A DNA stretch of 53,288 bases from an uncultured delta proteobacterium (GCA_963755715.1 CAVWLW010000035.1:1-53288); one strand, 5' to 3'; positions 5,174-30,504 are shown, numbered from the stretch's first letter. Numbers and translations: made by a program. Notes: a model not told the origin generated them from the sequence alone.

Positions 5174-5198
5174 CGGCCGCTGATGGCCATCGCTAGCC
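5174..5198 (+). mobile_element. attC 3'-half remnant
   Basis: CGGCCGCTGATGGCCATC-GCTAGCC resembles an L'/R' end (one mismatch to GTTAGCC), downstream of the 5118 stop. Confidence 0.4.
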
Positions 5199-5203
5199 GT
5201 AAG

Positions 5204-5226
5204 ATTGAACTGAATTGATCTCATAA
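5204..5226. repeat. Half copy of the bipartite element
   Basis: ATTGAACTGA-ATTGATC-TCATAA lies directly after the attC remnant and directly before the IS110 end. Confidence 0.5.
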
Positions 5227-5472
5227 ACGGAATGGCGTTCATGGCGGTTATGTCGTAAGGGATGTGACAATACCGTCAGGAAAGGAGCCATTCAATGGAG
5301 CTTTGCAGGAGCAGATCTGCACAAACGAGTAACACAGTTGGCTGTTCTCAGAGATGGGCAGCCGCCGTCACAGTTTCGTTTCCCCAACGATCCGAAGACC
5401 GTTCAGGCGGTTTTAAGGAAACTCCCCAGAGGGACAAAAATAGCGGTCGAGGCCACGGGTTCGTGGTGGAAC
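5227..5472 (+). mobile_element. IS110-family remnant: non-coding end plus truncated, frameshifted transposase N-terminus
   Basis: AAGGAG RBS and ATG 5295; FAGADLHKRVTQLAVL...TKIAVEATGSWW matches the IS110 RuvC-like N-terminus (GxDxHK...xEAT). Similarity stops near 5470. Confidence 0.8.
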
Positions 5473-5673
5473 CTCAATGTCCCTCTTTGCGTAAACCGCA
5501 TGCAGGTCAATCTAAAAAACTCAGTTCCAAAAAAATATGAAACGAACGCGCCGCGTGAAAAAAGCTCGCTGGCGCTAGCAGGTATATTGGTAATACAGTG
5601 ACCAGTGTATTGTGGTGGAGCGGAGCATCGGAATCTTGACAAGGAACTGATTGCCCAAAAGGAGGACGGAGAA

Positions 5674-6024
5674 ATGGCTTCGACAAAAGACGTTGTAGGC
5701 CGGCACTTAGAGTTTTTTGGTAAGGGTGACCTCAAGGGCATCCTCTCTGACTATGCGCCGGGAGCCGTCCTGTTCACGCCGGATGGACCGCTCAATGGAG
5801 CTGACGCGATTAGGCCGTTTTTCCAGGCCATGATTGCAGAGTTTGGAAAACCTGGCTCAGCGTTCAGCATGAAGCAGCAGTTTATCGAGGGCGACTATGC
5901 TTACATCCTGTGGACCGCAGAGACTGCCGACAACGTGTACGAGTTGGGCACGGACACGTTCGTCGTTCGGGACGGTAAGATCGTGGCCCAGTCATTCGCG
6001 GGCAAGATTACGCCCAAGGGCTGA
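5674..6024 (+). CDS. SnoaL/NTF2-like protein
   Basis: HLEFFGKGDLKGILSDYAPGAV...GTDTFVVRDGKIVAQSF; GGAGG RBS. Confidence 0.88.
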   Translation: MASTKDVVGRHLEFFGKGDLKGILSDYAPGAVLFTPDGPLNGADAIRPFFQAMIAEFGKPGSAFSMKQQFIEGDYAYILWTAETADNVYELGTDTFVVRDGKIVAQSFAGKITPKG

Positions 6025-6049
6025 AAAGACGCCGTCATTCCGGAAGGCC

Positions 6050-6114
6050 GCCCAACAAAGCGATCAAGCCGACCGGCTACGCCTGGGCTAACATTGCGCT
6101 TCAGACCGATCGCT
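6050..6114 (+). mobile_element. Two fused attC 5'-half remnants
   Basis: GCCCAAC-AAAGCGATCAAGCCGACCGGCTACGCC (6050) then GGCTAAC-ATTGCGCTTCAG (6086); R''/L''-like halves with no matching R'. Confidence 0.55.
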
Positions 6115-6132
6115 AAGAGCGACGGCGGCATC

Positions 6133-6161
6133 TTGACAAGTCTTTGCAGCCGCGGAATATT
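6133..6161 (+). promoter_or_regulatory. Putative sigma70 promoter for the DUF3597 gene
   Basis: TTGACA-N17-AATATT. Confidence 0.4.
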
Positions 6162-6223
6162 TTTATTATAAGCCGTTCAGCGACGATCTATACCGCCCTC
6201 ATCATTACTGAAAGGAGTCTGAC

Positions 6224-6619
6224 ATGAGTCTGTTCAGCTCAATCCTTGAGAAGCTAGGGTTTAGTCAAAGAGCGGAACCGAATAAGCCCGCGCCTGCTGC
6301 TGCCCCTACTTCGGCCCCACAGGCAGCCCCGGTTGAAAAACCCCCCGTGGTGGCCATCTCTGCAGTCGATGTCGTCGCGAAACTTGAGAGTCTCGCCGCA
6401 TCGAACCCGCAGAAGCTCAACTGGAAAGTCTCAATTGTGGATCTGCTCAAGCTCCTGAACCTAGATAGCAGCCTCGAGGCGCGAAAGGAGCTTGCCACTG
6501 AACTCGGATGTCCCAAGGAGAAGATGGGCGATTCTGCCCAGATGAACATATGGTTGCATAAGACCGTCCTTCAGAAGCTCGCAGACAATGGAGGCAACAT
6601 ACCAAAGGAACTTCTCTGA
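6224..6619 (+). CDS. DUF3597 domain protein
   Basis: Pro/Ala linker, then LNWKVSIVDLLKLLNLDSSLEARKELATELG...MNIWLHKTVLQKLADNGGNIP. Confidence 0.9.
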   Translation: MSLFSSILEKLGFSQRAEPNKPAPAAAPTSAPQAAPVEKPPVVAISAVDVVAKLESLAASNPQKLNWKVSIVDLLKLLNLDSSLEARKELATELGCPKEKMGDSAQMNIWLHKTVLQKLADNGGNIPKELL

Positions 6620-6851
6620 TAGCGGCCAGACGGACACTTCGGCTTTGATATTTGGGACCGCAGTATATCTAGCCGACCGACGCACTCCGACGCTTCAACG
6701 CGATGTTGTGGAGTCCTCACCAGGGGTATGCGTGTTCCATGCCGACAAAGTGATTAAGTGACCGCTACAAGCCCGACCGTGAGCGGCCAGGATTTAAACT
6801 GACTTCTCCCTCGAAACAATCAAAAGAAAAGGTTCACACGGAGCAAATCGT

Positions 6852-7244
6852 ATGAAGACAACACTCTCAACCGTCATACTTGGGCTGGTTCTCTTATTCA
6901 CCGGCGCCGCGCAGGCACAGTTATACGATGTCTACTATTATTGGGACGGCGCTCAGTACCAGCAGTATTGGCCGCAACAATATGATCTATACCCGTATGG
7001 CAACACAAATCAGTATCCGGAACAGTTATACGACCCGTATTACCAGTTACACGTTGTGCACTACCAGCTGTATCTACCGCAGTACCAGCCTTATTTTTAT
7101 CAATCCTGCTGCTTTGCCGGAGGCGTTGTTATTCCGGGACGACCAATACGAGGCAGACCGGCGAGACCAGGTGGCGTCGCCTTGTGGCGATCGTCACGGT
7201 TGCCACCGGTAGTCAACCAGTTTGCGCCAAATAGACGCCGTTGA
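6852..7244 (+). CDS. Secreted Tyr/Gln/Pro-rich hypothetical protein
   Basis: Signal peptide (AQA), low-complexity YQP region, GGAG RBS. Confidence 0.65.
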   Translation: MKTTLSTVILGLVLLFTGAAQAQLYDVYYYWDGAQYQQYWPQQYDLYPYGNTNQYPEQLYDPYYQLHVVHYQLYLPQYQPYFYQSCCFAGGVVIPGRPIRGRPARPGGVALWRSSRLPPVVNQFAPNRRR

Positions 7245-7491
7245 GCGACGTTCAATCTAACGGACTCTGATCGGTTGATTTCGCGCTGGACGCAGAACAG
7301 CAGCAAAGGAGGGCAATATGGCTGAAGAACCTCAAACAGAGCAACTCTCGGAGGAGATTAAGACATTGATTCGGGGCGCTAACTTCGGTGACCTCGCAAC
7401 GCTGATGCGCGATGGAGCCGCAAAAACAAATTGGTATTGCAATTCGAGGCCGCGTGCGGAGCGGGCGAATAAGGTGATTAGGTGACGAAAG

Positions 7492-7689
7492 ATGGCTACC
7501 CATATGAATCTAGAAGATCTCGCCAAACGTATTCGAGATGCATGCCTTGAAGCGGTCCTTCAAGAATACGAGGATGCGGGGGTACAGGGCCTGTGTGCTG
7601 AGGGGCGTTGGGAAGCAGCTGTAGGCGCGCTGCGAACACTTGATCTCGCGCCGCTGTTGCGTGAGTTCCAGCACCCGTCAGCAGATTGA
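7492..7689 (+). CDS. Small conserved hypothetical protein
   Basis: YEDAGVQGLCAEGRWEAAVGALR motif; start may be 7504. Confidence 0.7.
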   Translation: MATHMNLEDLAKRIRDACLEAVLQEYEDAGVQGLCAEGRWEAAVGALRTLDLAPLLREFQHPSAD

Positions 7690-7851
7690 TCGAACCATGT
7701 GGCAATGATGGATAGTTCGGAGGACATGAGATTTCCATCTGCAGGATCTTCCAGGATTTATCGACTTCTTTGATCCGAAGTGATTGCAAACCTGTCCTTT
7801 AGAACTCCTTAGTCTACTCGACTTTTACGACGAGGCCGTGCCGGCGCGGGA

Positions 7852-8427
7852 TCAGCGCAGACGCGCGAGAAAGTAAGCGAGATCGCCTATCTGTTCATCG
7901 CTGATCGGATAGAGCACATCCGCCATCGCGGCGTCGTAGCCGCGGCGCGTGTTGTTCTTGTATTCGCGCATGGCTTTGGCGAGGTAGTCTTCGCGCTGGC
8001 CGGCGAGACGGGGAACATTTTGTTCGCCGGAAAAATTTCCTTGATGGCAGAAATTACAGCGGTGTTGCTCGATGAGCGCGCGGGCGCGCTCCATTCGCTC
8101 TTGATCGATTGGGCCGCCAACGGGTTTGGGCGGCGGCAACTTTGCGAGATGCGCCGCTATGCTGCGCAGATCGTCATCCGTGAGTCCTTGCATCGCCTGG
8201 TTCATCGGTTCGACGACGCGCAGTTTGTCGCGGAACATGAGCAACTGAATGGTGAGATAAAAAACCGGTTGTCCGCCGAGGGATGGTACCTCGGGGATGA
8301 CCGATTGACCGGTGGCGCCGTGGCAGGCGAGACAGACGGCGAGCTTCTCTTCGAGCGCGGCGGCGTTGACGAGTAACGCCGGCAATAGGACGAGCACCGT
8401 AGCGATAACGCAAATGAGCGCCGGCAT
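7852..8427 (-). CDS. Diheme cytochrome c4/c553
   Basis: Signal peptide, CLACH and CNFCH heme motifs, P.L.GQ motifs. Confidence 0.93.
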   Translation of the reverse strand: MPALICVIATVLVLLPALLVNAAALEEKLAVCLACHGATGQSVIPEVPSLGGQPVFYLTIQLLMFRDKLRVVEPMNQAMQGLTDDDLRSIAAHLAKLPPPKPVGGPIDQERMERARALIEQHRCNFCHQGNFSGEQNVPRLAGQREDYLAKAMREYKNNTRRGYDAAMADVLYPISDEQIGDLAYFLARLR

Positions 8428-8493
8428 TTGGTTGGCAGGCGCTCATTTGGATAAATAGAAACGGGCGGTGATTCGTTCGGTGCCCCGTTTCGC

Positions 8494-9786
8494 TCAACGG
8501 TTGGCGACCTTGGCGCTGCCGTAAGTCACGCGATAAACGGCGCCGGCGTGATCGTCGGAAACCAGCAGCGATCCGTCTTTCATCACCTGCACGTCGACCG
8601 GCCGGCCGCTGTATTCGTTGTTCTGCAGAAAGCCGGTGAGAAACGGCTCCTGGGATTTTACGCTGCCGTCCTTGTTGAGCTTCACGACGATGACATCGCC
8701 GCCGATCTTCTTGGTCCGATTCCAGGACCCGTGGCGCGCGATGAAAATCGCGTTCTGGTATTGGCTCGGAAACATTTTGCCGGTGTAAAAGCGCATGCCG
8801 AGCGCGGCCGAGTGCGGCCCGAGCAGGGCGACCGGTTTCTCGAACTCGTCGCATGAGCGACCCCAGCCCAATTCTCGATCGGTAAAGTTTCCTTGGTGGC
8901 AATAGGGGAAGCCGAAATGTTGGCCGACCTTGGTGACTCGGTTGAGCTCGTCTTCGGGAAGGTCTTCCGATAACCAGTCTCGTCCATTGTCGGTAAAATA
9001 AAGTTCCTTCGTCACCGGGTGCCAGTCGAATCCCACCGAATTGCGCACGCCGCGGGCGGCGATCTCCGCGTTGCTGCCGTCGAGGTCGATCCGCCGTAGG
9101 TGCCCGTTAGTCGCCGGCGGTTCGCAGATGTTGCAGGGCGAGCCGACGTTGACGTAGAGCTTGTTGTCGGGTCCCAGGGCCATAAATTTCCAGCCGTGTG
9201 ATTGATGATTTAGAAAATCACTGTAGATGACGACGGGCTTAGGCGGATTTTCCAGATTGTCTTCGATGTTTTCGAGCTTGGAAATTTTAGTGCCTTCGGC
9301 GATATAGAGCGCGCCCTTGTAAAAAGCTAGACCGTTGGGCCGATCCAGTCCCGAAGCGATGATCTTAGTTTCACGTTTGCCGTTTTTTTCGACGACGGCG
9401 TAAACTTTGTCGAGCACGCGGTTGCTGACAAATACGGTTCCTTTGTCGCCGAGACGCAAGGAGCGGGCGTTGGCGATGCCGCTCGCAAAGACGTCGACTC
9501 TAAATCCATTGGGAACCTTGAGCTGTGCGGTTGGCAACTTGTCCGCTGCGGCGCCGAAGGGCAGGGGCGCGACGTTGCGCAGTTGCTTGGCGACTTCGGC
9601 GTTGGGGATGTCGGGCCGTCCGGGCACGGTGGTCGGTTGCGGCTGCAAGGTCGGCATCGGCTGCGATGCCTCGGGAGCCTTGCTGGGTTGCTCGCCGGTT
9701 TGCTGCGCAAAAACGGGCGGCGCGAGCAGGGTGGTCAGAATTCCGGCAAATAAGAGGTGCGCGCGCTTGGACAATGGCGTGATCAT
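8494..9786 (-). CDS. PQQ-dependent glucose/sorbosone dehydrogenase family protein
   Basis: Signal peptide; GSPCNIC, GVRNSVG, TDNGRD, HGSWNR, GRPVDV beta-propeller motifs. Confidence 0.92.
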   Translation of the reverse strand: MITPLSKRAHLLFAGILTTLLAPPVFAQQTGEQPSKAPEASQPMPTLQPQPTTVPGRPDIPNAEVAKQLRNVAPLPFGAAADKLPTAQLKVPNGFRVDVFASGIANARSLRLGDKGTVFVSNRVLDKVYAVVEKNGKRETKIIASGLDRPNGLAFYKGALYIAEGTKISKLENIEDNLENPPKPVVIYSDFLNHQSHGWKFMALGPDNKLYVNVGSPCNICEPPATNGHLRRIDLDGSNAEIAARGVRNSVGFDWHPVTKELYFTDNGRDWLSEDLPEDELNRVTKVGQHFGFPYCHQGNFTDRELGWGRSCDEFEKPVALLGPHSAALGMRFYTGKMFPSQYQNAIFIARHGSWNRTKKIGGDVIVVKLNKDGSVKSQEPFLTGFLQNNEYSGRPVDVQVMKDGSLLVSDDHAGAVYRVTYGSAKVANR

Positions 9787-9872
9787 AAAAAATCCTCCTT
9801 TGTCGCACGGATTAAAAATTTAATGCGTCAATCACGGATATTTCAAGTTCGTTTTCCTATCCAATCCCAGTC

Positions 9873-11087
9873 TCAGCCGCGCCGGTTCTGGACAAGTTTC
9901 TCCGGCTCCTCTTGGAACTTTATTGGAGCGTCCTGTGGCAGGACCCATTTTTTAAGCGGCCGTCCTTCGGCTAAAGCGCGGAGCTCTCGTTCCCAAATCT
10001 TACGGAACAGGATGACGCCGATATCGGAGCGGCCGAGATGTTCTTGCGGGCGAGCCGCGAGGGAGCCCTGTCCGACTTGGGCGACGTAGTCCTGGGTATG
10101 CACGAGCGAAATCTTGTCTTTGAAGAAATTATCCAGGTCTTGGAAACTTAGTTTACCCGATAGCACCGCCTCGCCCATTTGCGCCACGGAAATTTTTGGC
10201 TCCGCGGCCGCGGCATCCCGGCGCGCGCGGTATTTATCCGCGGCTTCGCCGCTGAGCGGCAGGCGGCGCAGGCGAAATTCCAACGAGCGCTGATCATCGA
10301 GCGGCACGTCCCATTGCATGCGGTCTTCCGATCCGCACTCCGGTTCGGGCGACGGATTTCGAAACGCATAAACGTTGGGCATGAAGAAGTGAAAAACGTT
10401 GCGCCAGCCTTGAGCAAAACTCGCATAGGACGTCGTTCCCCAGGGACTTTCTTCTTTGGAAATCTCCGGCAGGCCGCTGCGATTATTGGCGCTGGAAGCC
10501 GAGTACGCGCCGCGGTGAACGAAGGGCACGTGATAAGTGTCGCCATTGTTGTCGATGCGCTGGAAAAAATTGCACGGCCACACTTCGGTGGACAAAACTT
10601 CGAGCACGCCATCCTCTTCCATATGCGGATAGAGGGGAAAAGGCGGCGCTTCACCGGCGCCGAAGTAAGTGAAGATCAAACCGAGGTATTCCCGAGTCGG
10701 GTAGCTTCTTATGCGGATTTTTGCCGCGAACGATTTTTCTTCCGCCGGCTGATCAGTGCACTGACCGGCGCCGTTGAATAACCAGCCGTGGTACATGCAG
10801 CGGATCGAGTCGCCTTCGACCCAGCCGGCCGAGAGCTGCGTGCCGCGGTGCGGGCAGCGGAATTCCGTGACATGCGGCGCGCCTGTTTCACTTCGGTAGA
10901 GCGTAAAGCGCTCGCTCATGATCTCGATCGGCTTGGCTTGGCCGGGGCGCAGCTCTTCGGCGCGATGGATCGGCTGCCAAAACCGGCGCATGAATGTGCC
11001 GGCGAGAGTGCCCGGGCCAGTGGAGACGAGATCTTGGTAGCGGAGCTTTTTGTGGGTGCGGTTACTTTTACGTTTGGCTTGCGGCAT
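9873..11087 (-). CDS. Rieske non-heme iron oxygenase alpha subunit (phthalate 4,5-dioxygenase-like)
   Basis: CPH...CMYH Rieske motif, DTYHVPFVH iron site, GPGTLAG..MRRFWQP N-terminus. Confidence 0.9.
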   Translation of the reverse strand: MPQAKRKSNRTHKKLRYQDLVSTGPGTLAGTFMRRFWQPIHRAEELRPGQAKPIEIMSERFTLYRSETGAPHVTEFRCPHRGTQLSAGWVEGDSIRCMYHGWLFNGAGQCTDQPAEEKSFAAKIRIRSYPTREYLGLIFTYFGAGEAPPFPLYPHMEEDGVLEVLSTEVWPCNFFQRIDNNGDTYHVPFVHRGAYSASSANNRSGLPEISKEESPWGTTSYASFAQGWRNVFHFFMPNVYAFRNPSPEPECGSEDRMQWDVPLDDQRSLEFRLRRLPLSGEAADKYRARRDAAAAEPKISVAQMGEAVLSGKLSFQDLDNFFKDKISLVHTQDYVAQVGQGSLAARPQEHLGRSDIGVILFRKIWERELRALAEGRPLKKWVLPQDAPIKFQEEPEKLVQNRRG

Positions 11088-11120
11088 TTTTCTCCCCGAG
11101 TCTCTTACAGATCAAATTCG

Positions 11121-11283
11121 AAATCCGAAGCTCGAAATCCGAAACAAACTAAGAAAATCCTAAGCACTAAACTTAACTGGAAATCCAGTCATGACGTTTC
11201 TCGTCTCCACCCAGCATGCGTTTCGAATTTTCCGGCCCGGTTTTGAATTTGTTTCGAGTTTGAGGATTTCGTGCTTCGGATTT
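11121..11283. repeat. Intergenic palindromic (REP-like) element
   Basis: AAATCCGAAGCTCGAAATCC ... GGATTTCGTGCTTCGGATTT terminal inverted repeats. Confidence 0.8.
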
Positions 11284-11339
11284 TTCATTCCGTCCTTATG
11301 TGTCTGTTCGAGATACCGATCTAATTGCGGCTTTCGCAC

Positions 11340-12461
11340 TCACGCTTCCATTCGGATCGGTGTTCCCACGCGCTTTAAATTCGCTTCGAAGCGGCGACGA
11401 ATCTCGACGTCCTCGTCCTCATATTCGATCATCGTGCCGCCGTCTTTAACCGAAATATAAACGCCATCGGTCTTTTTCTTAGCCGCTTGGTGCAGTCCGA
11501 TGGGATGCAGTCTGCTGCCGAATCGGAGCGCCAGTTGGCGCGCCGCTTCTTTGCCGATGTTGAAGTGCTGGTGAAACCAACCGCTGGGCGGGCTCAAAAC
11601 GCTGCCCTCGTGCCAGCGCAGCTCGACGACCTCAGCGCCGCGGCCTGTCGCGTACGGTTGAGTGCCGCTTTCCTTCGGCCATAGCAGCGTGTATCCCTCC
11701 GATTTCAAAATCACGATCACTGCGCCGGCGCCGTGGTAGTGCGCCTTGTGGTAAAGGCCGCTGGGCCAGTCGGCGACGTGGCCGATGAGCGCATTTTTCG
11801 ATGATTCGAACTGCACCATTCCCACTTCGGCTCCTTTGACGTAAAGATCGTCGCGAACTTTGACCTCTTTGGCGTCGGGAACGAAGTTGGTCTCCCAGAT
11901 CGACTGCATGCCGACGGCGTAAAAATTTTGCCTCGTGGCAAAGTAGTCATCTTCGCCGCGAAAGCGATCGGTAAAAGTATAGGGGCAATTGAAAATAAAT
12001 TCCGCGTTGCGATAAAAATCCATCGCGATCGGGGCGGTCGTGACTGCCATCAGCCGGACCGGCTCTCGGCCGCCGTTGACCAAGCGATGCCAACTATTCA
12101 GCGGCGGCGCAAAGAGACTAAACGGGCCCCATTCGAACAGCCGCTTTTGCCCGCCATCCTGCCAGACTTCCGTGGCGCCGTGGCCGGCGAGAATGCAAAT
12201 CATTTCTTCGTAGAGATGCCGCTCGGGATTGAGCGCGCCGCCCGGCGGGATCTCCGCGACGTACATGCCGGTTTGCCCCTCCATGCCGTAGAGATGAACA
12301 AAAGCGCCGCTGCCGCCCATGCGGCGCCAGGGACTGAGCTTTAATTCACGCACATCCTCGATACTGAAGCCCTCGACAATGGGAACGCCTTCAGTCTTCA
12401 TCCATTGGCAGTAACCGGTGCGCTCCAGCGACGCGAGCATTTCTTTGAGTTCCGATTCCAT
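11340..12461 (-). CDS. Bicupin-domain protein
   Basis: Two cupin motif sets (ERHLYEE...PPLNSWH; YHKAHYH...PPSGWFHQHFN). Confidence 0.88.
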   Translation of the reverse strand: MESELKEMLASLERTGYCQWMKTEGVPIVEGFSIEDVRELKLSPWRRMGGSGAFVHLYGMEGQTGMYVAEIPPGGALNPERHLYEEMICILAGHGATEVWQDGGQKRLFEWGPFSLFAPPLNSWHRLVNGGREPVRLMAVTTAPIAMDFYRNAEFIFNCPYTFTDRFRGEDDYFATRQNFYAVGMQSIWETNFVPDAKEVKVRDDLYVKGAEVGMVQFESSKNALIGHVADWPSGLYHKAHYHGAGAVIVILKSEGYTLLWPKESGTQPYATGRGAEVVELRWHEGSVLSPPSGWFHQHFNIGKEAARQLALRFGSRLHPIGLHQAAKKKTDGVYISVKDGGTMIEYEDEDVEIRRRFEANLKRVGTPIRMEA

Positions 12462-12479
12462 CGCAGGTCCTTTTCATTC

Positions 12480-12544
12480 ACCACGAAGATCACGAAGGTT
12501 CGCCGTATCTTCTTAACCTTCGTGCTCTTCGCGTCCTTCGTGGT
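12480..12544. repeat. Intergenic palindrome (REP-like)
   Basis: ACCACGAAGATCACGAAGGTT ... AACCTTCGTGCTCTTCGCGTCCTTCGTGGT. Confidence 0.75.
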
Positions 12545-12549
12545 AAAAA

Positions 12550-15658: not shown

Positions 15659-15725
15659 ATTGAATTGAGTTCTCCTTCAAAGCCCACTTCCGTGAGATCG
15701 GAACTGACGCGTTGTTCAGTTCAAC
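15659..15725. repeat. Complete bipartite inverted element
   Basis: ATTGAATTGA-GTTCTCC-TTCAAA, 21-bp spacer, ACTGAC-GCGTTGT-TCAGTTCAAC. Confidence 0.7.
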
Positions 15726-22401: not shown

Positions 22402-22492
22402 CGGCGGAATCCTGTAAGTGAATTTCGTTTGCTATTCCGTTAGTCTGTCATCGTCGTGATCTATTCCATAAGGGAGGATCCAAAAATCCCCC

Positions 22493-22738
22493 AGCCCGGA
22501 TTATTCGCGAACGGCCCGATAAAGGCGCAAGCCCTCCAGAGTGGAGGCAATGGGCCCCTGCCCTTTGGAGCGGTCCGTAGCCTGAATTGATCGAATGAAC
22601 GACTGGGAAAATGCGAGCGGCGCGGTGAATATCAAACCCAGGGCAGCCATTGATTGGCTTCTCTGTCTTCGCTCTTTCAATCTTGGCTTTATCAACACCG
22701 TGTCGCACGTTTTCCTCAGAGCATGAATAATCCGGACT
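22493..22738. mobile_element. MITE-like segment bounded by 14-bp terminal inverted repeats
   Basis: AGCCCGGATTATTC ... GAATAATCCGGACT (13/14 match), no transposase inside. Confidence 0.5.
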
Positions 22739-22852
22739 CGAGAGGTGTTTTGCCGAAGTGCAAGGAGAACTTTGATCTAGCCACCCGCTCAGGAGACTAG
22801 CTAAGCGCGTAGATTTAAAAGGGCAGCCCTAAGATCTGCGAGGTAGCAGAAG

Positions 22853-23854: not shown

Positions 23855-24505
23855 TGCGATGTCGCATTGTTCAATCACTCTGGGAACCAACACCCGAAAT
23901 CATGAACTTCCTATCCGATCGAATTGAAAATTCCACAAGAGAAAAAATCGAAAAGCACTATCCCCGATGGGTACTCAATCAAGCTCTTGTAACGTACTGC
24001 ACAATATTAGATTCGTTCCTTGACTCCACCTTGGACGCCATTTTTCAACACAATCCGAAGGTTCTATACGGAGTTGCGGCGGCAAAGAATATCGACCTAA
24101 AAAAGCTGGTCGACCTTGGAACTGTTGACGCCGTGATCCGGGAAATCCGAGCGAAAGAGATAAGAAACTTTTCTAACGATGACATCGCCAAGCGATCTCC
24201 AATATCTCAAGGACAAGCTCTCGATAGATACCGACCGATTATTTGATTGGGAATTTTCAGCGGAAGATACCGATCGACGTTTGGAAGGGCTAAATTTCAA
24301 ATCTCTCGAAAACTATTACCAGCAGCGCCACGATATTGTTCACCGGGACGCCACGCCGATTTCGACGTTCGAGGAGATTGATATTGTGTCGGTATTTTTT
24401 GTAAACGTCGGTTCTCAAACTCGCCGCTCGGATCTGTCAAAAGCATCAGATTCCGCTCGATTTATCTCTGATGGTAAACCGCAACGAAAGATACGAAAGA
24501 CTTAA
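23854..24505 (+). pseudogene. HEPN-domain protein, probably 5'-truncated and frameshifted (near 24195)
   Basis: NQALVTYCTILDSFL helix plus an RHDIVH (Rx4H) motif across two ORFs; more AT-rich than neighbours. Confidence 0.6.
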
Positions 24506-24871
24506 AGGGCAGACGAAATCTTAGCTGCAACGGCGAGCCGGCGGCAGATTGTGCACGGTTCGGTCGGCCTGTGCACCGAGCCTTCGGTGTGCGCTACGAC
24601 GTAGTCGTTGGCCAGCCTGGATTCCCGTGGCCTGAAGCTAATCGAGCGGGTGACCAAGCGTGAAATCCTACGGACTGTGCGTCGAGATTTTCGTAGCGAT
24701 GCCACCTGATTTCAGTCCTGCGCGATCCGCCGCGTCTTGTTCACTTGAAACGGCGCTGACTTTTTCAATGCTCGCCGAGATTTTGGATGAGGCGGGCATA
24801 CCAATAGCGCAGTTTGAGTACGACGCGGAGCCGTGAACATAACACAGCGCTTTTCCGACAATTAGTTCCCA

Positions 24872-25122
24872 GTGACCGCTGAAACATCCGGCGCTCTCTC
24901 CGGCGTCGGTTACAATAAATACCGATCGGCGATAAAGCCCGGCATCGTGCCGTACGCCGTCAAGCTCTATGCTTACATTTTCGTCGCCAATGTTTTGGCC
25001 TTGTCATCGTGGTGCGATGGGTCAAGCCGTTCGGCTTCTTGGTGAGTATGGTCTTCGGTTTGGTGTTCGCCTATCTGACGATTGTTACCGGTCGCTCGTT
25101 GTTTGGGCGAAAGGAGCTGTGA
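24872..25122 (+). CDS. Small membrane protein (frameshift near 24995)
   Basis: GIVPYAVKLYAYIFVANV joins GLVIVVRWVKPFGFLVSMVFGLVFAYLTIVTGRSLFGRKEL*. Confidence 0.35.
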
Positions 25123-25352
25123 AGGCGCAGCCGCAGGCTATGGCCCCCACCATTTTTATAAATTGCATCTATTTCAGGGTGACCGACGATGAGAATCAGA
25201 ATCTACTGGGACAGGCGCTATGGCAGATTGATGGGGATAGCCCGCTTGTCCGTTGGCTATGGATTTTGGATCGGTCGATTAACCGTCATAGTCGTTAACT
25301 TGGACAAATTGAAACTATGAACACTTGCTAACCGCTTGGGCCTGATCCGTGA

Positions 25353-25631
25353 ATGGGGCAGAGCCGATCAATTGAGACTTCAGTTCTTGAAGCGCGGCAC
25401 AAGATTTTTAACCAGCTGTGCACTGCTTATCGGCGCTCCGCACAAGATCCGGATTTCGGCCTTCGTGCTTATGATGTCATGGTAGAATTAGCTATACCAC
25501 TAAATTTGTTTGCCGAAGCACTCGACGGCTTCGTAGACGTAAACGGCGAGCTTATTATTGAGATGTTTGAACGCAAGGGCGAGCGATATATTCGACTCGG
25601 AGAAACAGCAAAGTATAACTGCCGCGATTGA
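25353..25631 (+). CDS. Hypothetical protein
   Basis: 92-aa ORF with globular composition, possibly winged-helix-like. Confidence 0.55.
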   Translation: MGQSRSIETSVLEARHKIFNQLCTAYRRSAQDPDFGLRAYDVMVELAIPLNLFAEALDGFVDVNGELIIEMFERKGERYIRLGETAKYNCRD

Positions 25632-25679
25632 CCGCGCCGAACTGGTAAAATTCGTCTCTGGGGAAACAAGGAGAAAGTT

Positions 25680-25919
25680 TTGACCGACGAACAAATAGCT
25701 CAAGCCTGGGCAAAGCACCATCCTGAACACCGCGCAGACAAAGTGTCAGAGCATGTGTGTCGACTAATTTGTCTCTGCATCGATCTTCGCGTCAAAGCAG
25801 AAATCGCGGGCGGCGATACTGCGAGCAGACTTGATCGCGTTTTAGCTAATATGCGAATCCCCAAAAAAGAGTTCGACGACCTAACGAACACCTACGGATC
25901 TTTAATTGTTGCCCATTGA
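25680..25919 (+). CDS. Hypothetical protein
   Basis: AAGGAG RBS before TTG; 79 aa. Confidence 0.55.
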   Translation: MTDEQIAQAWAKHHPEHRADKVSEHVCRLICLCIDLRVKAEIAGGDTASRLDRVLANMRIPKKEFDDLTNTYGSLIVAH

Positions 25920-25932
25920 GTCTGTAAGGACG

Positions 25933-26025
25933 TTCGAGTTCATCATCAATCTGAAAGCGGCCAAGCAGATCGGTTTGACGATTCCGCCGAATGTGTTGGT
26001 GCGGGGGGATAATGTGATCAAATGA
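25933..26025 (+). pseudogene. 3'-end remnant of an ABC_sub_bind (PF04392-type) binding-protein gene
   Basis: FEFIINLKAAKQIGLTIPPNVLVRGDNVIK*, the characteristic C-terminus of the family; no upstream part. Confidence 0.85.
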
Positions 26026-26105
26026 GGGCCGTGCGAGGCAAGTGGGTAGAGGCAGAGAAAAAGACTACTGAACTCTTAAACAGTCAAGAAAAACTCGGCA
26101 AGAGC

Positions 26106-26624
26106 TTATTTTCGCAGCGTTTCGCGTCGCCGTTTCTCGATCTCCACATCCAACTGCCGTGATTTCTCGTTAGCATATTTGAGCTTTTCCTTTTCCTGCA
26201 CTAAAGACTCTCGCTCCCTCATGAGCAGACGTTTTTCCTCCGACATTTTCTGGTGTTCCTCAAGGACCTGAATCCAAGTCTTGGCGGGCTCGGACATTTG
26301 ACTTTGCGGATATTCCTTCACGACCGTCCTAAAGTATGAGAGCGCACGCGTATAATTTTTTTTGGGATTGCCTGAATGGGCTGAGATCATACCCAGGTTG
26401 AACACCGCCATATCGGGAGCGCCCCTGCCTTCCAGGAGTATTCTCTGGGTTTCATTATATGCCGCATCGTATTGCCCCTGGGACAAGAGACCTTGGACAT
26501 GCTCGAAGGGAACACTCCTTTTTTCCACTTGCGGAAGCAAAGTATCTGAAGTGCCACTCATCGACGAACATCCGGAGACCACAACGAAACCGATCAGTAT
26601 TGCGAACCGACAATATATCTTCAT
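26106..26624 (-). CDS. TPR-like/coiled-coil lipoprotein (QseG-like context)
   Basis: Lipobox VSGC, AVFNLG...NPKKNYTRA...YPQS TPR-like segment, C-terminal coiled coil; ATGA overlap with the upstream gene. Confidence 0.75.
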   Translation of the reverse strand: MKIYCRFAILIGFVVVSGCSSMSGTSDTLLPQVEKRSVPFEHVQGLLSQGQYDAAYNETQRILLEGRGAPDMAVFNLGMISAHSGNPKKNYTRALSYFRTVVKEYPQSQMSEPAKTWIQVLEEHQKMSEEKRLLMRERESLVQEKEKLKYANEKSRQLDVEIEKRRRETLRK

Positions 26625-27337
26625 TTCGGCACACCGAGACCTTTCCACCAAGCAGAGGAACGCAAATGCGACACCAGCGCGGCGATCGGCGAATCAACCG
26701 AGGTGAAATTTTGGGGCAATCTGCCTCCCAACCAGCAGGCCAAGAGGGCCCCGACGATCGCCAGAAGCAGAGTGGCAGCTAACGTGAAATTTTGGCTCTC
26801 CTGTGCGGCCTTTTCGATATAACCTATTCTATGCTGCAAGCTCTTTTCGAGATTGCTCTTAAAAGCCGCATGTTCCCTGAGTAGATAATCCACTAGCCGC
26901 TCTTTCTCCTCCCGGTAGCGGCTTTCCGCATAGGGCTGGTTCTTTCTTATATACTCGACTTCCCTTTCGAAAAGTTGCTGATATTGTGCGTGATACTCTT
27001 CGGTTTGGGACAAGCGTTGTACGGCATCGGCTGACGTGGCCAGCGTTTTCAATTGATCCATACGACGCTCGAAGTCGGCTTTGAACTCCTTATATTGCTC
27101 GTAGTGCACGGCAGCCTGTGTGACGCTGAATTTGCCACCGTACCTGACCTCAGATAAAAACGCGTCCGCCAGTCCGTCTGCTTGATCGATCATGCGTTGT
27201 TCGATGCTAACCGCGATATGCGCTGCAGCGCTTAGCCTGCCAAGCTGTATTATCGAGTAGCTAGAAACGGCCACCATGAAGGTGAGCATTGCCGAATAGC
27301 TGATGACAAACCGGCGAAGCGTAGGGGTTAACATCAA
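26621..27337 (-). CDS. Membrane protein with a four-helix periplasmic sensor domain and no kinase module
   Basis: TM, about 160-aa helical domain, TM, short tail; translationally coupled on both sides. Confidence 0.7.
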   Translation of the reverse strand: MMLTPTLRRFVISYSAMLTFMVAVSSYSIIQLGRLSAAAHIAVSIEQRMIDQADGLADAFLSEVRYGGKFSVTQAAVHYEQYKEFKADFERRMDQLKTLATSADAVQRLSQTEEYHAQYQQLFEREVEYIRKNQPYAESRYREEKERLVDYLLREHAAFKSNLEKSLQHRIGYIEKAAQESQNFTLAATLLLAIVGALLACWLGGRLPQNFTSVDSPIAALVSHLRSSAWWKGLGVPK

Positions 27338-29760
27338 AGCTCTCCTTCGGTGTACCTGTATGGTGCGATCAACTCAGTAGCTGTCTTGCTCGGCTTAAGA
27401 TCGTCGACAGAACCAACCGGTGCGCCAACCGGTATACGTACGGTGAAAGTTGTTCCTTCACCCAGTTTACTTTGCACGGTGACTATTCCCCCCAAGACTT
27501 CGACGAAGCTCTTGACGACGTAAAGGCCAAGGCCAGCGCCGGAGAAGTGTCGTGTGGTGCTACTGTCTATCTGACGAAATTTTTCAAAGATGTACGGTAA
27601 AAACTCCTCCGCGATCCCGATCCCCGTATCTCTGACGCAAAATTCGACCGCTGCCTGATCGGCGAGGGAGCAGACACAAACATCAACCGAGCCCTGATCA
27701 GTAAACTTGATCGCGTTATTGATGAGATTGATCAGCACTTGCCGAAGTTTCATACGATCGCTCAAAACTTTCGGCAAACCAGTCGGAACATGCCAGTTAA
27801 CCGCCACGCTTTTTTCCCTCGACACCATGGCATAGTCGGATTCTAGTTCTTCGACTAATTGATAAATATCGATCTGTTCCGCGTTAACTGTGACGATTCC
27901 CGTCTCGATCTTGGTGATTTCCAGGATCCCATTGATGAGCGACAGCAGGTGACTTGACTGCGTTCTGATCTTTTCGGTGACTTTCTCGTGTTCCGGGGTG
28001 ATCTCGCCGAACACCCCCATATTCAGTGCTTCAGCGCTATTCATGATGATGTTAATCGGCGTGCGCAGTTCATGGGACATGACGCCTAGAAACTCATCTT
28101 TGATCCGGTTTGATCTCTCCAGCTCAGCTGCCTGATTTTTGGTCTGTTCGTAAAGGCGAGAATTGTAAAGCGCAATGGCAGCTTGCTGCGTGAGATCTCT
28201 GAGAAAATCTTCCTCCTCTGTTCTTAGATCAATCGCTTCGGTCGAATAAAATGACAGGACACCTAACACGTGATCCCTAACGACTATCGGCAAGCCGAGG
28301 TAAGTAACGAATCCCGCGCTGCGTAGGGAAACCGGATCGGAACTCCGCGGATCGCTCTGCACGTCGGCGATCAACAGGGGAGACTGAAGCTTGAAAACTT
28401 CCTGAGGAAGGCCCCGTTCGCATTCCGTCCTAGACCACAAACTGGTCGCATCTTGGCCCGCCGGATACGCGATCGGCTCGAGTGTGCCGTTTTCATTGAC
28501 CCAGCTGAGAGCGATACAGGAAGAGGGAAACAAGTTGGCGACTCCCTCGAGGAGAGCCTTCAAAACGTTGCCAATGTCGAGGCTCGAAGTCATCGCTGCG
28601 CTGATCTGATGGATGGCACTTTGTCGGAGGTGCTGCTTTTGAATCTTCGTCTCGGCCACTTTGGCATCTGCCGCACGCTGCTCCAATGCTTTGGCCAATT
28701 CGTCAAACGTCCGGGCTAAATGACCGAGTTCGCTTGCGCCGTAAGGCAGACTGGTACGCGCTTTTAAATTTCCTGAGGCCAGTTGCTTGGTTGTGGCCAT
28801 CAGATCGCGGACCCTTCGCAGTACGAAGAGATCGGCACCAAACCAGGCTCCGATCAAAGTCAGGACAGTGAGCACGCCGACGATAATAAGATTTTGCCGT
28901 AGTATGCGCTCAGCTTCGGCAAATGCTGTCCGGACCGGAATCTCAATCCCGGCGTACATAATGTTACCGGCTATCCGGTGGTCCAGTTGCCGATAAGTAA
29001 TCAGACGGGCGACTCGGTCGCTGCCGACAGATTCGATATTTCCTTCGACCCCACGAATGACCGTGGGACCACGGGAAACACCAATATGAATTTGTGTTCC
29101 GAATGAATCGACTGTGTCCGGGTGCCGGAGAAATATCTTGCCGCTTTCATCGAAGAAGATAGATGAAGCTTCGGAAGGGAGATGATTTTGAGCGGTAATC
29201 CGAACGATCCAGGAATAGTCCAGGACTACAAACGCGACACCCTGAAGTGCGCCAGAGGAACTTGTGATCGGAAATCCAAATTGAATGACCGTCTTGCCGT
29301 TAGAACTGTCCTTTTGAATCTCACCTACCGAAAACTCCCGGGTCTCGAAGACGCGTAAGATATAGGGATCTTGCAGGCGCACGCCTTTGAGGGAATGGGG
29401 GCCAAGCGCACTGCATAGTAGGTTACCCTTGAGATCGATTACGCCCAGATCGACATAAAGGGGCTCCAGCAACCCGGCGAGAATCTTCTGGCATGCGACA
29501 CTGTTGTGTTCACGAATCTGCGGCAGGCGGGCCAGCGTAATGAGAAGCTGATGGGCATTCTCGAAAATACGGCGCTGCTCAGTGGCGATAACACGGGCGG
29601 ATCCGAGAGCGCTCTTTTGCACCTGAGCAGCAATGGAACTGCGGTGTCTTTGGTCGGTAAATAAAATGACGCCGAAGGCTGGAATAACGGCCAGCAGAAC
29701 GAAGGCGATTGAACGAGCCCGCAGGCTGGAGACAAACGGCATCATTTTTCGTCCATTCAA
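27334..29760 (-). CDS. Sensor histidine kinase (Cache-HAMP-GAF-HisKA-HATPase)
   Basis: Two TMs, HAMP (SELGHLARTFD), GAF, MSHELRTP, NAIKFT, DTGIGI, GAGLGL. Start may be 29742-29745. Confidence 0.93.
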   Translation of the reverse strand: MNGRKMMPFVSSLRARSIAFVLLAVIPAFGVILFTDQRHRSSIAAQVQKSALGSARVIATEQRRIFENAHQLLITLARLPQIREHNSVACQKILAGLLEPLYVDLGVIDLKGNLLCSALGPHSLKGVRLQDPYILRVFETREFSVGEIQKDSSNGKTVIQFGFPITSSSGALQGVAFVVLDYSWIVRITAQNHLPSEASSIFFDESGKIFLRHPDTVDSFGTQIHIGVSRGPTVIRGVEGNIESVGSDRVARLITYRQLDHRIAGNIMYAGIEIPVRTAFAEAERILRQNLIIVGVLTVLTLIGAWFGADLFVLRRVRDLMATTKQLASGNLKARTSLPYGASELGHLARTFDELAKALEQRAADAKVAETKIQKQHLRQSAIHQISAAMTSSLDIGNVLKALLEGVANLFPSSCIALSWVNENGTLEPIAYPAGQDATSLWSRTECERGLPQEVFKLQSPLLIADVQSDPRSSDPVSLRSAGFVTYLGLPIVVRDHVLGVLSFYSTEAIDLRTEEEDFLRDLTQQAAIALYNSRLYEQTKNQAAELERSNRIKDEFLGVMSHELRTPINIIMNSAEALNMGVFGEITPEHEKVTEKIRTQSSHLLSLINGILEITKIETGIVTVNAEQIDIYQLVEELESDYAMVSREKSVAVNWHVPTGLPKVLSDRMKLRQVLINLINNAIKFTDQGSVDVCVCSLADQAAVEFCVRDTGIGIAEEFLPYIFEKFRQIDSSTTRHFSGAGLGLYVVKSFVEVLGGIVTVQSKLGEGTTFTVRIPVGAPVGSVDDLKPSKTATELIAPYRYTEGEL

Positions 29761-30045
29761 TTGACCTCAGTTCAATACAAACGCTGCGCCACGGAATTCA
29801 GCGGAATTCAGGTAAGATTCTGAATTGAAAGAGTTGTTAGAAATTATTAGTACGGGAACAAGATGACAAAAGTTGGTACACATGCGCGCGGTAGGGAATA
29901 GAGCAAACGTGCGTATCGGCCGCGTACAAGCTAAAGTCTCAAAACCCGGAATCCTGGTTTGTGATTAACCTGAAAAACTGCGAAGCAGATCAGCCTAAGA
30001 TTCCACAGAGAGTGCTGACGCCGGCGAATAAAGTAATCAAATGAC

Positions 30046-30082
30046 TCAGGTCAGAGATCAGAAGTCAGAGATCGGAAATCAG
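30046..30082 (+). repeat. Heptameric tandem repeat
   Basis: TCAGAGA-TCAGAAG-TCAGAGA-TCGGAAA-TCAG. Confidence 0.6.
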
Positions 30083-30124
30083 GACGGAAGCAATGACTCT
30101 ACGAGAGCGGATAAGAGTGATTAA

Positions 30125-30411
30125 GTGAGTAAAGCAAGCGAATTGGCGACCATTGAGCAGACAGTCCATGTTTTTGAAGCGAATGGGTTTGCGTTGGCTG
30201 AGCGTCGGCGCGTTCAGCAGGTGACCGCCACCAGTCTTGCCGAGTTCGCTAAGCGGAACGCAGATGCGCGCGGACACCTCTGTTGCGCTGATTTCAGATT
30301 CGGGCTTTCGGAAGGGACAGGTAGCGATCGAGCGGTCGGCTGCTCGCGAGCGCATTCCCATACCTGTTATGGAAGTCATCCGAGCTCCTGGTTTTTCAGA
30401 GCGCTGCCTAA
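30125..30411 (+). pseudogene. C-terminal remnant of a class I methyltransferase cassette gene
   Basis: VFEANGF...SLAEFAKR / RADTSVALISDSGF..GQ / ELLVFQSAA*; frameshifted; the stop TAA lies within GCCTAAC. Confidence 0.55.
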
Positions 30412-30473
30412 CCCGCGCTTACAGACAGGCGGCGCTTTGTGCGATCGTGAAGCGAAGCGGCTGAAGCGCACAC
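30406..30473 (+). mobile_element. attC site truncated just before R'
   Basis: GCCTAAC-CCGCGCTTACAG ... GCGGCTGAAGCGCACAC, followed by AAGATTGAACT in place of GTTAGGC. Confidence 0.7.
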
Positions 30474-30504
30474 AAGATTGAACTTTCTAATTGCAGCCCA
30501 AATG

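What the first reader, a model, noticed from the sequence alone, without database searches (positions are those of the whole stretch)
5174..30490. The same AAGATTGAACT junction abuts two attC sites 25 kb apart
Seen: AAGATTGAACT starts at 5201, 2 bp after an attC R'-like box. At 30474 it replaces the R' box (GTTAGGC expected) of an otherwise intact attC. Inference: the bipartite element, or its recombinase, targets or captures DNA at attC right ends. That could explain how integron cassettes are scattered through this chromosome without a local integrase.
Basis: partly seen in the sequence, partly recalled or inferred. Interest (0 to 1): 0.7.

Follow-up and report, generated by a model that had tools for sequence, protein, structure and literature searches.

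The report
Shared arm of attC-like repeat
The repeated 11-base word is not the end of a jumping element but the first bases of a hairpin repeat that marks gene-cassette ends in this bacterial family, one copy of which was hit by an insertion sequence that specifically targets the repeat.

Summary
AAGATTGAACT is at 5201 and 30474 as reported. It is the left arm of a 72-80-nt imperfect palindrome ("unit"). The unit has 24 places in this genome at E<=1e-3 and occurs in 54 of 90 genomes of the taxonomic family. It lies mostly just 3' of co-oriented ORFs, in cassette-array-like clusters with no integrase nearby.

At 5201 the unit is cut after GAATT by a 253-bp relic of an IS1111-family insertion sequence. 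The same junction occurs in four other genomes and 41 metagenome loci. Three intact copies split complete units at that position.

At 30474 only 11-15 nt of a unit arm remain. They are fused to a conventional attC remnant that lacks R', inside a patch of decayed mobile DNA.

A GTTRRRY box sits just before the arm in 4 of 30 arms (0.3 expected) and in 13 of 28 metagenome contexts (about 1.8 expected). Sometimes a whole conventional attC precedes it.

However, the motif is target sequence, not element sequence, and no "bipartite element" was found. This is a new variant of known kinds: lineage-specific attC-like repeats, cassette clusters without an integrase, and attC-targeting IS1111 elements.

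The parts
5192..5198 (+). R'-like heptamer GCTAGCC directly before the unit arm
   Evidence: Sequence read. It has 2 mismatches to GTTRRRY and no R'' partner. The homologous metagenome locus L115 has GTTAGCC.
5199..5216 (+). Left arm of a unit (GT-AAGATTGAACTGAATT), holding the first copy of the 11-mer
   Evidence: Identical to the arms of intact units, e.g. C42:34869 and L076. The 21-bp stretch 5196-5216 is shared with C42.
5217..5469 (+). Relic of an IS1111-family insertion sequence: left inverted repeat GATCTCATAAACGG (5217-5230) and the first 57 codons of the transposase (5302-5472, start lost by a frame shift)
   Evidence: Pfam PF01548 at E 4.4e-4 and 1.3e-3, below the cut-off. 89.6% identity to L038 over 5203-5469. 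Same junction in other genomes. Intact relatives analysed.
30406..30473 (+). Conventional-type attC remnant (R'' GCCTAAC, L''/L' pairing, spacer ACAC) that lacks its R' box
   Evidence: A related methyltransferase cassette in L094 carries a candidate complete site, ACCCAAC...GTTAGAT.
30474..30488 (+). Remnant of a unit left arm (AAGATTGAACT, then TTCT), the second copy of the 11-mer
   Evidence: Sequence read and compared with the unit consensus. nhmmer reports no hit here at E<=10, so this assignment rests on 11-15 nt.
30710..30741 (+). Short (about 34-nt) hairpin form of the unit; it overlaps the stop codon of the RNase R gene on the - strand
   Evidence: nhmmer E 1.3e-3, profile positions 2-29; ORF list.
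1071..1125 (+). Unit (right part) after a methyltransferase ORF
   Evidence: nhmmer E 3.7e-11; Pfam.
1769..1800 (+). Short-form unit preceded by GCTAAGG-CT
   Evidence: nhmmer E 0.46. The homologous context in L077/L078 carries a full unit.
1970..2041 (+). Full-length unit
   Evidence: nhmmer E 7.3e-13; DNA fold z -3.0; model R1 72.2 bits.
3273..3377 (+). Conventional attC (GCCCAAC...GTTGGGC) after an MBL-fold ORF
   Evidence: attC scan; fold z -2.7; Pfam.
15659..15725 (+). Full-length unit, solitary
   Evidence: nhmmer E 9.4e-12; fold z -2.5; model R1 70.6 bits.
30147..30351 (+). 3' third of a SAM-methyltransferase cassette gene (pseudogene)
   Evidence: 72.5% nucleotide identity to 275-293-aa genes in L093-L095; Pfam on L094.
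30503..30649 (+). Context only: a 147-nt conserved element that elsewhere lies next to a P4-type integrase gene or tRNA-end fragments

Best explanation
AAGATTGAACT is the first 11 bases of the left arm of a 72-80-nt imperfect palindrome, which I call the unit. Its top-strand consensus is YYRR-GATTGAAYTGAAT-TCTCC-...-GCGTC-GTTCAGT-TCAATC-YYRR.

What the unit does. It is a lineage-wide repeat that stands at the 3' end of gene modules and behaves as an attC-type cassette boundary. Neighbouring modules differ exactly from its GTTCAGT box onward. The same downstream module can follow either a unit or a conventional attC body. That the integron integrase recombines it is inferred, not shown.

The R'-type box. 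Many units carry a GTTRRRY box just left of the arm. In some cases this is the R' of a complete conventional attC, giving attC-unit doublets.

Site 5201. The unit was invaded by an IS1111-family insertion sequence that always integrates between GAATT and CTCC of the unit, in the same direction as the cassettes. Later deletion left its first 253 bp.

Site 30474. Only 11-15 nt of a unit arm survive. They are fused to a conventional attC remnant that has lost R'. Compared with intact doublets, 9 nt are missing. The surrounding intergenic patch consists of broken mobile DNA.

Conclusion. The two copies of the 11-mer are two independent copies of one repeat arm. They are not two ends or two junctions of one element.
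For: Repeat family:
- Alignment of full units.
- nhmmer finds 24 distinct places at E<=1e-3 in this genome, clustered at C54:40.9-52.1 kb and C61:59-67 kb.
- Model R1 finds it in 54 of 90 genomes and 18 of 23 genera of the family, with up to 46 copies per genome. Copies lie in same-strand runs spaced about 1.2-5 kb apart.

Cassette-like position:
- Of the 24 units, 11 have only a same-strand frame of >=100 aa ending <=250 nt upstream. Two have only an opposite-strand one, 8 have both and 3 have none.
- The ORFs are diverse: PF04392 binding proteins, a cyclase, methyltransferases and a haem-oxygenase-like protein.

Boundary at the right arm:
- L077 and L078 are identical through ORF end, R'-like box and unit, and diverge right after GTTCAGTTCAATC.
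- The attC body seen at C42:39324 with GTCCAAC is joined to ACTGAAC/ATTGAAC plus the unit arm at C54:44966 and C1:172289.

Insertion sequence:
- The junction ATTGAACTGAATT|GATC.CATAAACGG occurs in G000, G109, G090 and L055, with a variant in G073. Each copy is truncated at a different point.
- 41 metagenome loci carry the junction, in 28 distinct contexts.
- Three loci hold complete IS copies of 1386-1413 bp. Two have open transposase frames of 344 and 352 aa; the third is broken. All have a 3' non-coding region of 310-399 nt and end repeats GATCTCATAAACGG/CCGTTTAGAGATC. L132 scores on PF01548 and PF02371.
- Their right flanks match unit profile positions 13-72 at E 2e-11 to 3e-8.

R' box enrichment.
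Against: - None of 10 integron-integrase loci read in relatives has a full unit within about 10 kb. There are only 2 weak partial hits in L066, while 8 of the 10 have conventional attC hits on the 3' side of intI. So the unit is not the attC type of the integrase-linked arrays.
- Its boxes deviate from RYYYAAC/GTTRRRY by 1-2 positions.
- RNAalifold supports only the 9-bp outer stem, with no covariation. No L-box or extrahelical-base pattern was shown.
- Many arrays are runs of PF04392 paralogues with conserved 5' leaders. Part of the array pattern could therefore come from tandem gene duplication.
- The assignment at 30474 rests on 11-15 nt, and nhmmer does not call it.
- The ORF test uses raw open frames in a 56% G+C genome and is noisy.
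- The module-exchange argument rests on a handful of cases.
Confidence: 0.7

Rival explanations
1. The unit is itself a small mobile DNA that inserts immediately after the R' box of attC sites. It could be an ORF-less attC-only mini-cassette moved by the integron integrase, or a MITE-like hairpin. On this view the 11-mer is the element's end, which is.
For: - A GTTRRRY box (<=1 mismatch) lies at the exact offset in 4 of 30 arms, against 0.32 expected. In metagenome contexts it lies within 6 offsets in 13 of 28, against about 1.8 expected.
- Complete conventional attC hairpins directly abut units at C54:42245, C61:64998, L076, L091, L121 and L122.
- The six bases after G are similar between sites (TTAGCC, TTAACC, TTAAGC, TTGACC) and match the upstream R'' less well, with 1-3 mismatches. 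That is what one would expect if they arrive with the unit.
- Standard attC x attC exchange does not by itself produce such doublets (my inference).
Against: - At least 20 of 30 arms in G000 have no R' box and follow an ORF directly. About 9 of 20 sampled units in relatives do the same.
- The module ORF + box + unit is duplicated as a whole, with its boundary at the unit's right arm (L077/L078).
- No target duplication was seen and no associated transposase.
- No empty-site/filled-site pair was found.
Confidence: 0.2
2. The unit is a REP-like extragenic palindrome, spread by a RAYT-type or other host process and perhaps acting on transcripts. It would be unrelated to integron recombination. 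IS1111-family elements are known to target such repeats.
For: - Palindromic, intergenic, orientation-biased and present at tens of copies per genome.
- It occurs after non-cassette-like genes, e.g. an NRPS gene in L049.
- It is absent from the integrase-adjacent arrays.
- An IS1111 member that targets REP sequences is described in passages of PMC11187229.
Against: - None of the 9 Y1_Tnp (PF01797) matches in G000 lies next to a unit hit. The closest pair is about 2 kb apart, on C23.
- The flank-exchange and hybrid sites fall at the GTT box.
- The unit is closely associated with R' boxes and conventional attC sites.
Confidence: 0.08
3. The shared 11-mer is a chance coincidence with no common origin.
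For: - About 340 identical 11-mer pairs are expected in a window of this size (my arithmetic).
- 3 of the 6 exact genome hits (C45, C59, C73) show no unit context.
- The 30474 copy is not called by nhmmer.
Against: - The 5201 copy is part of an 18-nt arm identical to intact units, and of a junction conserved in 41 metagenome loci.
- The 30474 copy stands exactly where doublets place the arm, after an attC L' and spacer, in the same orientation as every other unit of the window.
Confidence: 0.02

Closest known systems
Lineage-specific attC repeat families of sedentary chromosomal integrons and integrase-less attC clusters (CALIN, SALIN)
   Same: The unit is a homogeneous palindromic repeat of attC-like length at the 3' end of co-oriented ORFs. 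It forms clusters without a neighbouring integrase, carries core-like boxes (A[CT]TGAAT / GTTCAGT), and shows flank exchange at the GTT box. The terms CALIN and SALIN come from the IntegronFinder papers, of which I saw the search listing and abstract starts only, and from the outline of 10.1101/2022.09.11.507474.
   Different: The R stem is extended by 6-10 further paired bases. The core boxes deviate from consensus. No L-box or extrahelical-base signature was shown. The unit was not found beside any of 10 integrase genes, whose arrays use conventional attC sites. It is often preceded by an extra R'-type box or a whole conventional attC.
IS1111-attC group (ISPa21, ISPst6, ISKpn4) of the IS1111 family
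   Same: The element has a DEDD transposase and a short 5' leader. It also has a long non-coding region downstream of tnp and inverted repeats at or near the ends. It inserts site- and orientation-specifically near the 5' (R'') end of a cassette recombination site, and decayed copies are left behind. The literature basis is passages of PMC3001079 and PMC11187229. That degraded footprints occur at array ends is recalled from Tetu and Holmes 2008, which is not held.
   Different: Here the IS lies in the same direction as the cassettes, whereas PMC3001079 describes the known ones as antisense. The target is the non-canonical unit. A full-length relative (L041) is at most 37% identical to any of 4516 matching plasmid records. 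No tree with the named group was made.
ISPa11-type IS1111 elements that target REP sequences
   Same: An IS1111-family element specific for a repeated extragenic palindrome (passages of PMC11187229).
   Different: The target here is tied to cassette ends and R' boxes. No RAYT association was found.
Integrase-mediated cassette insertion at genomic attG sites
   Different: It concerns conventional cassettes and non-att sites. It does not predict a conserved 72-nt palindrome or attC-unit doublets.

Membership tests
integron attC site | Inverse core R'' (RYYYAAC) and core R' (GTTRRRY) at the two ends, complementary to each other | tested here: inconclusive
   The unit has A[CT]TGAAT and GTTCAGT, which are 6 of 7 complementary. 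Each deviates from the consensus by 1-2 positions.
integron attC site | Imperfect palindrome of roughly 55-140 nt | tested here: met
   Length 72-80 nt. The outer stem of 9 pairs is kept in 7-11 of 11 sequences per pair. DNA folds give z -2.5 to -3.0 for two window copies.
integron attC site | L''/L' stem with extrahelical bases and an unpaired central spacer | tested here: inconclusive
   RNAalifold finds no conserved inner stem and no compensatory change. A 5-nt TCTCC follows R'', as a spacer would.
integron attC site | Lies at the 3' end of a promoterless ORF, co-oriented in arrays | tested here: met
   Of 24 units, 19 have a same-strand frame ending <=250 nt upstream, and for 11 that is the only such frame; 2 have only an opposite-strand frame. 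Same-strand runs occur in G000, G018, G019 and G073.
integron attC site | Neighbouring cassettes are exchanged at G|TT of R' | tested here: met
   L077 versus L078. C54:44966 and C1:172289 versus C42:39324. These are few cases, and the bases after G are conserved, so the exact crossover point is not resolved.
integron attC site | Arrays start next to intI/attI | tested here: not met
   None of 10 integrase loci holds a full unit. Unit arrays lie on contigs other than those with the intI hits in G019, G073, G014 and G015. G018 has 43 units and no intI at E<=1e-60, at 80% completeness.
integron attC site | Recombined by an integron integrase as a folded bottom strand | not testable with these tools
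   Needs a recombination assay.
IS1111 family (IS110 superfamily) | DEDD transposase with PF01548 and PF02371 | tested here: met
   The intact copy L132 scores 58.3 and 80.6 bits, and L041 scores 62.8 and 79.5 bits. The window relic alone scores only 18.9-20.5 bits on PF01548, below the cut-off of 29.
IS1111 family (IS110 superfamily) | Long non-coding region downstream of tnp, short one upstream; inverted repeats at or near the ends | tested here: met
   In L123 and L132 the 3' region is 310-312 nt, tnp starts about 80 nt from the left end, and the end repeats are GATCTCATAAACGG/CCGTTTAGAGATC. The same repeats, subterminal, are seen in the G121 and G015 copies. The defining criteria are taken from passages and the abstract of PMC11187229.
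IS1111 family (IS110 superfamily) | One fixed target position and orientation | tested here: met
   The same left junction occurs in 41 metagenome loci (28 contexts) and 5 genomes. In 3 of 3 complete copies the right flank continues the unit. The pattern search itself required this junction, so other targets of the same IS were not sampled.
IS1111 family (IS110 superfamily) | Target chosen by a seekRNA from the non-coding region | tested here: inconclusive
   Only 7-8-nt identities (CTAATTGA, TGAATTG) link the 3' region and the target. About 0.4 to 1.6 such matches are expected by chance, by my arithmetic.
IS1111-attC group | Transposase falls in the clade of ISPa21/ISPst6/ISKpn4; insertion antisense to the cassettes | tested here: not met
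   Orientation here is sense. The clade was not tested with a tree. The best plasmid matches of relative L041 are <=36.7% identical.
REP / RAYT system | A Y1 (RAYT) transposase gene flanked by the repeats | tested here: not met
   G000 has 9 PF01797 matches, and none is adjacent to a unit hit. Relatives were not checked.

The most novel reading that the evidence does not exclude
The unit is an autonomous, ORF-less, attC-only mini-cassette, or a hairpin parasite of attC sites. The integron integrase would insert it exactly at the G|TT of other attC sites, creating attC-unit doublets. Arrays would thereby gain a second, extended recombination site, through which whole modules spread across the chromosome far from any integrase gene. 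The IS1111-type element would have evolved to target this site.
Probability: 0.2. Interest if true: 0.7.

Novelty: new variant of a known kind. Interest (0 to 1): 0.5.

Why it matters
An uncultured, integron-rich bacterial family carries a second recombination-site-like repeat beside conventional attC sites. Record titles of related loci call these organisms Candidatus Binatia or Deltaproteobacteria MAGs. The repeat is non-canonical, reaches tens of copies per genome and forms arrays away from integrases.

If integrases use it, attC models built on conventional sites miss much of the cassette pool of such lineages. The attC-unit doublets would then be a new way of building or locking cassette ends.

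The insertion sequence is a clean natural example of an IS1111-type element with a single, well-defined 72-nt target. There are three intact copies and many dated relics. This is useful for work on RNA-guided (seekRNA/bridge RNA) target choice.

For the scan itself, the finding shows that a 'junction motif' shared by two sites can be the target repeat rather than the invader.

Tried and rejected
- **Rfam.** No family reached gathering score in the window or in four other G000 loci, except a group II intron in C42. An E-value search of 29760-30780 gave only noise.
- **Bipartite element.** IS relatives match the window only at 5203-5469 and not near 30474. The IS-fragment protein has no second copy in G000.
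- **Unit as a deletion derivative of the IS.** Rejected. Units lack the IS end repeats, and intact units flank complete IS copies.
- **Group II intron in C42 as evidence for attC identity.** Dropped. It sits after a different small hairpin, at GTC|CAAC.
- **Synteny test at rnr.** The DNA downstream of rnr differs in all 9 relatives read, so no empty site could be compared.
- **Covariance model of conventional attC.** Five seeds aligned too poorly to use.
- **Relaxed attC scan.** It passed 1702 places, which is unspecific, and was not used. I replaced it with a fixed-offset R'-box test.
- **RAYT association.** None found.
- **seekRNA-target complementarity.** Not above chance.
- **tRNA search** around the 147-nt element: none found.
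- **Tetu and Holmes 2008** is not held.
- **Literature.** No paper holds integron + attC + Binatia. The 'empty cassette' search gave nothing relevant.

Full report
**1. The observation**

The 11-mer AAGATTGAACT is at 5201-5211 and 30474-30484 on the + strand. Two identical 11-mers in 53 kb are unremarkable by themselves. By my arithmetic about 340 such pairs are expected. With one mismatch allowed there are 4 matches against a mean of 0.93. The whole 7.4-Mb assembly holds 6 exact copies against about 1.8 expected. The window is the whole of contig C35.

At 5201 the heptamer GCTAGCC does lie 2 bp upstream. But 5119-5200 folds no better than shuffles (z +0.13 and +1.09), and no R'' partner exists.

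At 30474 the upstream DNA has R'' GCCTAAC, a 9-bp L''/L' pairing with one bulged A, and a 4-nt spacer. The motif then stands where GTTRRRY should be. The fold is weak (z -0.97).

**2. What the 11-mer is**

Searches in the genome with the DNA around both sites showed that the word is the left arm of a repeated imperfect palindrome. Nine full copies align to this consensus:

YYRR-GATTGAAYTGAAT-TCTCC-ATC.AC.TCAAATCCT-GTGAGATTTGACTGAA-GCGTC-GTTCAGT-TCAATC-YYRR

A profile built from them, iterated once, finds 24 distinct places at E<=1e-3. Eight are in C54:40.9-52.1 kb and seven in C61:59-67 kb. The profile clearly prefers one orientation, for example 72.9 against 13.6 bits for the same copy.

In the window, all on the + strand, it finds:
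- 1071-1125
- 1970-2041
- 15659-15725
- 30710-30737, a short form
- 1769-1800, weakly

About ten copies in the genome are 34-nt short forms, consisting of left arm, TCTCC and right arm.

A covariance model of 11 copies finds the repeat in 54 of 90 genomes and 18 of 23 genera of the taxonomic family. There are up to 46 copies per genome, in same-strand runs about 1.2-5 kb apart. That tally includes the unpublished genomes G005 and G093.

Record titles of three related loci name the carriers as 'Candidatus Binatia', 'delta proteobacterium' and 'Deltaproteobacteria' MAGs.

**3. Is the unit an attC?**

For:
- *Length and palindromy.* Both fit an attC. The outer 9-bp stem is conserved.
- *Core-like boxes.* It carries A[CT]TGAAT and GTTCAGT.
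- *Position after ORFs.* It follows diverse ORFs in their own orientation. Of 24 units, 11 have only a same-strand frame upstream, 2 only an opposite-strand frame, 8 both and 3 none.
- *Shared downstream module.* The leader of a PF04392 gene, starting TTCAGTTCAATCCTACG.CGAAATTA, follows either a unit body (C54:40996) or a conventional attC body (C54:44966). The same attC body at C42:39324 has GTCCAAC instead.
- *Module duplicated as a whole.* Two copies of one module in G018 (L077, L078) are identical through the unit and diverge just after GTTCAGTTCAATC, into the two usual leader types.

Against:
- *Integrase loci lack it.* Integron integrases are common in the family: 33 of 90 genomes score over the curated cut-off. 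G000 has a frame-split one at C45. Yet in 10 integrase loci read with about 10 kb on each side, 8 show conventional attC hits on the 3' side of intI and none has a full unit.
- *No inner stem.* No inner stem or covariation is seen.
- *Tandem duplication.* PF04392 runs could partly be tandem duplications.

I therefore call it an attC-like cassette-boundary repeat. I treat integrase dependence as inferred.

**4. Site 5201**

After GAATT (5216) the sequence switches to GATCTCATAAACGG, followed by the first 57 codons of an IS110-superfamily transposase. Homology to relatives ends at 5469.

The same junction, ATTGAACTGAATT|GATC.CATAAACGG, occurs in G109, G090 and the MAG locus L055, and in variant form in G073. 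Each of these copies is truncated at a different point.

A metagenome scan for the junction returned 41 loci in 28 distinct left contexts. Three of them hold complete elements of 1386-1413 bp. Two have open transposase frames of 344 and 352 aa, and the third is broken. All three have a 310-399-nt region downstream of tnp and end repeats GATCTCATAAACGG/CCGTTTAGAGATC. L132 scores on PF01548 and PF02371.

The right flank of each complete element continues the unit from profile position 13 to 72, at E 2e-11 to 3e-8. The IS therefore splits complete units at one position, GAATT|CTCC, in the direction of the cassettes.

The gene order and end repeats fit the IS1111 family as described in PMC11187229 (passages and abstract). 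More distant relatives, with other targets, show the same repeats in subterminal position.

Known attC-targeting IS1111 elements are said to sit near the 5' end of attC but antisense (passage of PMC3001079). Here the position agrees and the orientation does not. A full-length relative is at most 37% identical to any plasmid-borne IS110-type gene. The pattern search required the junction, so it says nothing about other targets.

**5. Site 30474**

The DNA between the histidine-kinase gene and rnr is a patch of remnants:
- 29957-30044: the last codons of a PF04392 gene.
- 30147-30351: the 3' third of a methyltransferase gene whose full-length relatives are 275-293 aa. One relative, L094, is followed by a candidate complete site ACCCAAC...GTTAGAT, though its fold is not significant.
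- 30406-30473: the attC remnant.
- 30474 onward: the 11-mer followed by TTCT.
- 30503-30649: a 147-nt element that in relatives adjoins a P4-type integrase gene or tRNA-end fragments.
- 30710-30741: a short-form unit.

In relatives, a short unit lies just left of the 147-nt element in 6-7 of 18 copies. Compared with intact doublets of the form ...L'-spacer-GTTAGCC-GT-AAGATTGAA..., the window lacks 9 nt. Nothing IS-like follows. The assignment rests on 11-15 nt.

**6. The adjacency to R' boxes**

At the fixed offset, meaning a box ending 2 nt before RR-GATTGAA, 4 of 30 arms in G000 have GTTRRRY with <=1 mismatch. The background is 0.0105 per position, so 0.32 are expected. Two more arms, including 5201, have 2 mismatches.

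Among 20 units sampled from relatives, 3 have such a box. Among 28 metagenome contexts, 13 do within six offsets, against about 1.8 expected.

A full conventional attC, with an R'' partner and fold z of -2.5 to -4.1, stands directly upstream at C54:42245, C61:64998, L076, L091, L121 and L122.

Ordinary attC x attC exchange does not produce it. I see two candidate origins: a GTT box that is part of the extended arm and receives cassettes, or a unit-only mini-cassette inserted at G|TT. I could not tell them apart.

**7. Verdict**

The motif is the target repeat. The invader at 5201 is an IS1111-type element, and no invader is visible at 30474.

This is a new variant of known kinds. No paper in the held library combines integron, attC and Binatia. 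I saw the supplements of none of the cited papers.

Noticed in passing
window 30503-30649: A 147-nt conserved element with a terminator-like hairpin and a TGTCCG-N5-TGTCCG direct repeat. Seventeen further copies were read in 9 relatives of the genus, at 76-90% identity. One abuts the 3' end of a 407-aa P4-type integrase gene (L053). Two abut tRNA-like T-arm/acceptor fragments, although ARAGORN calls no tRNA. It has no Rfam match. It could be an arm of an integrative element or an unknown small RNA gene.
   Followed up: partly
window 5592-5611: The palindrome AATACAGTGACCAGTGTATT lies just upstream of a SnoaL-like ORF (5605-6024). Similar sites occur on contigs C70, C71 and C61. It looks like an operator.
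   Followed up: no
G000 contig C45:103861-105087 and L062-L071: The genome's integron integrase is split over three frames. Conventional attC sites lie on the 3' side of intI here and in 8 of 10 integrase loci of relatives. That is an arrangement with integrase and cassettes in the same direction.
   Followed up: partly
G000 contig C42:34926-36860 (L035): A group II intron (Rfam RF02001, 141 bits) with a maturase ORF is inserted at GTC|CAAC, between a small hairpin and a unit. The uninterrupted version of the site is at C54:47480-47576.
   Followed up: partly
G000 contig C54:45064-47345 and C42:37041-37851: A tyrosine recombinase gene (Phage_integrase + SAM_4) lies next to a split IS91-type transposase (Zn_Tnp_IS91, Y2_Tnp) inside a unit array. 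A paralogous recombinase is on C42.
   Followed up: no
G000 contigs C54:39.9-52 kb, C61:59-71 kb, C59: Runs of PF04392 (ABC_sub_bind) genes, several truncated. Each has a conserved leader of about 110 nt and a unit at its 3' end. One module has lost nearly its whole ORF (C61:59005-59296).
   Followed up: partly
window 51981-52129 and 52780-52927: Two direct repeats of 58 and 90 nt, 90-98% identical and about 799 nt apart. They are probably the ends of two paralogous genes.
   Followed up: no
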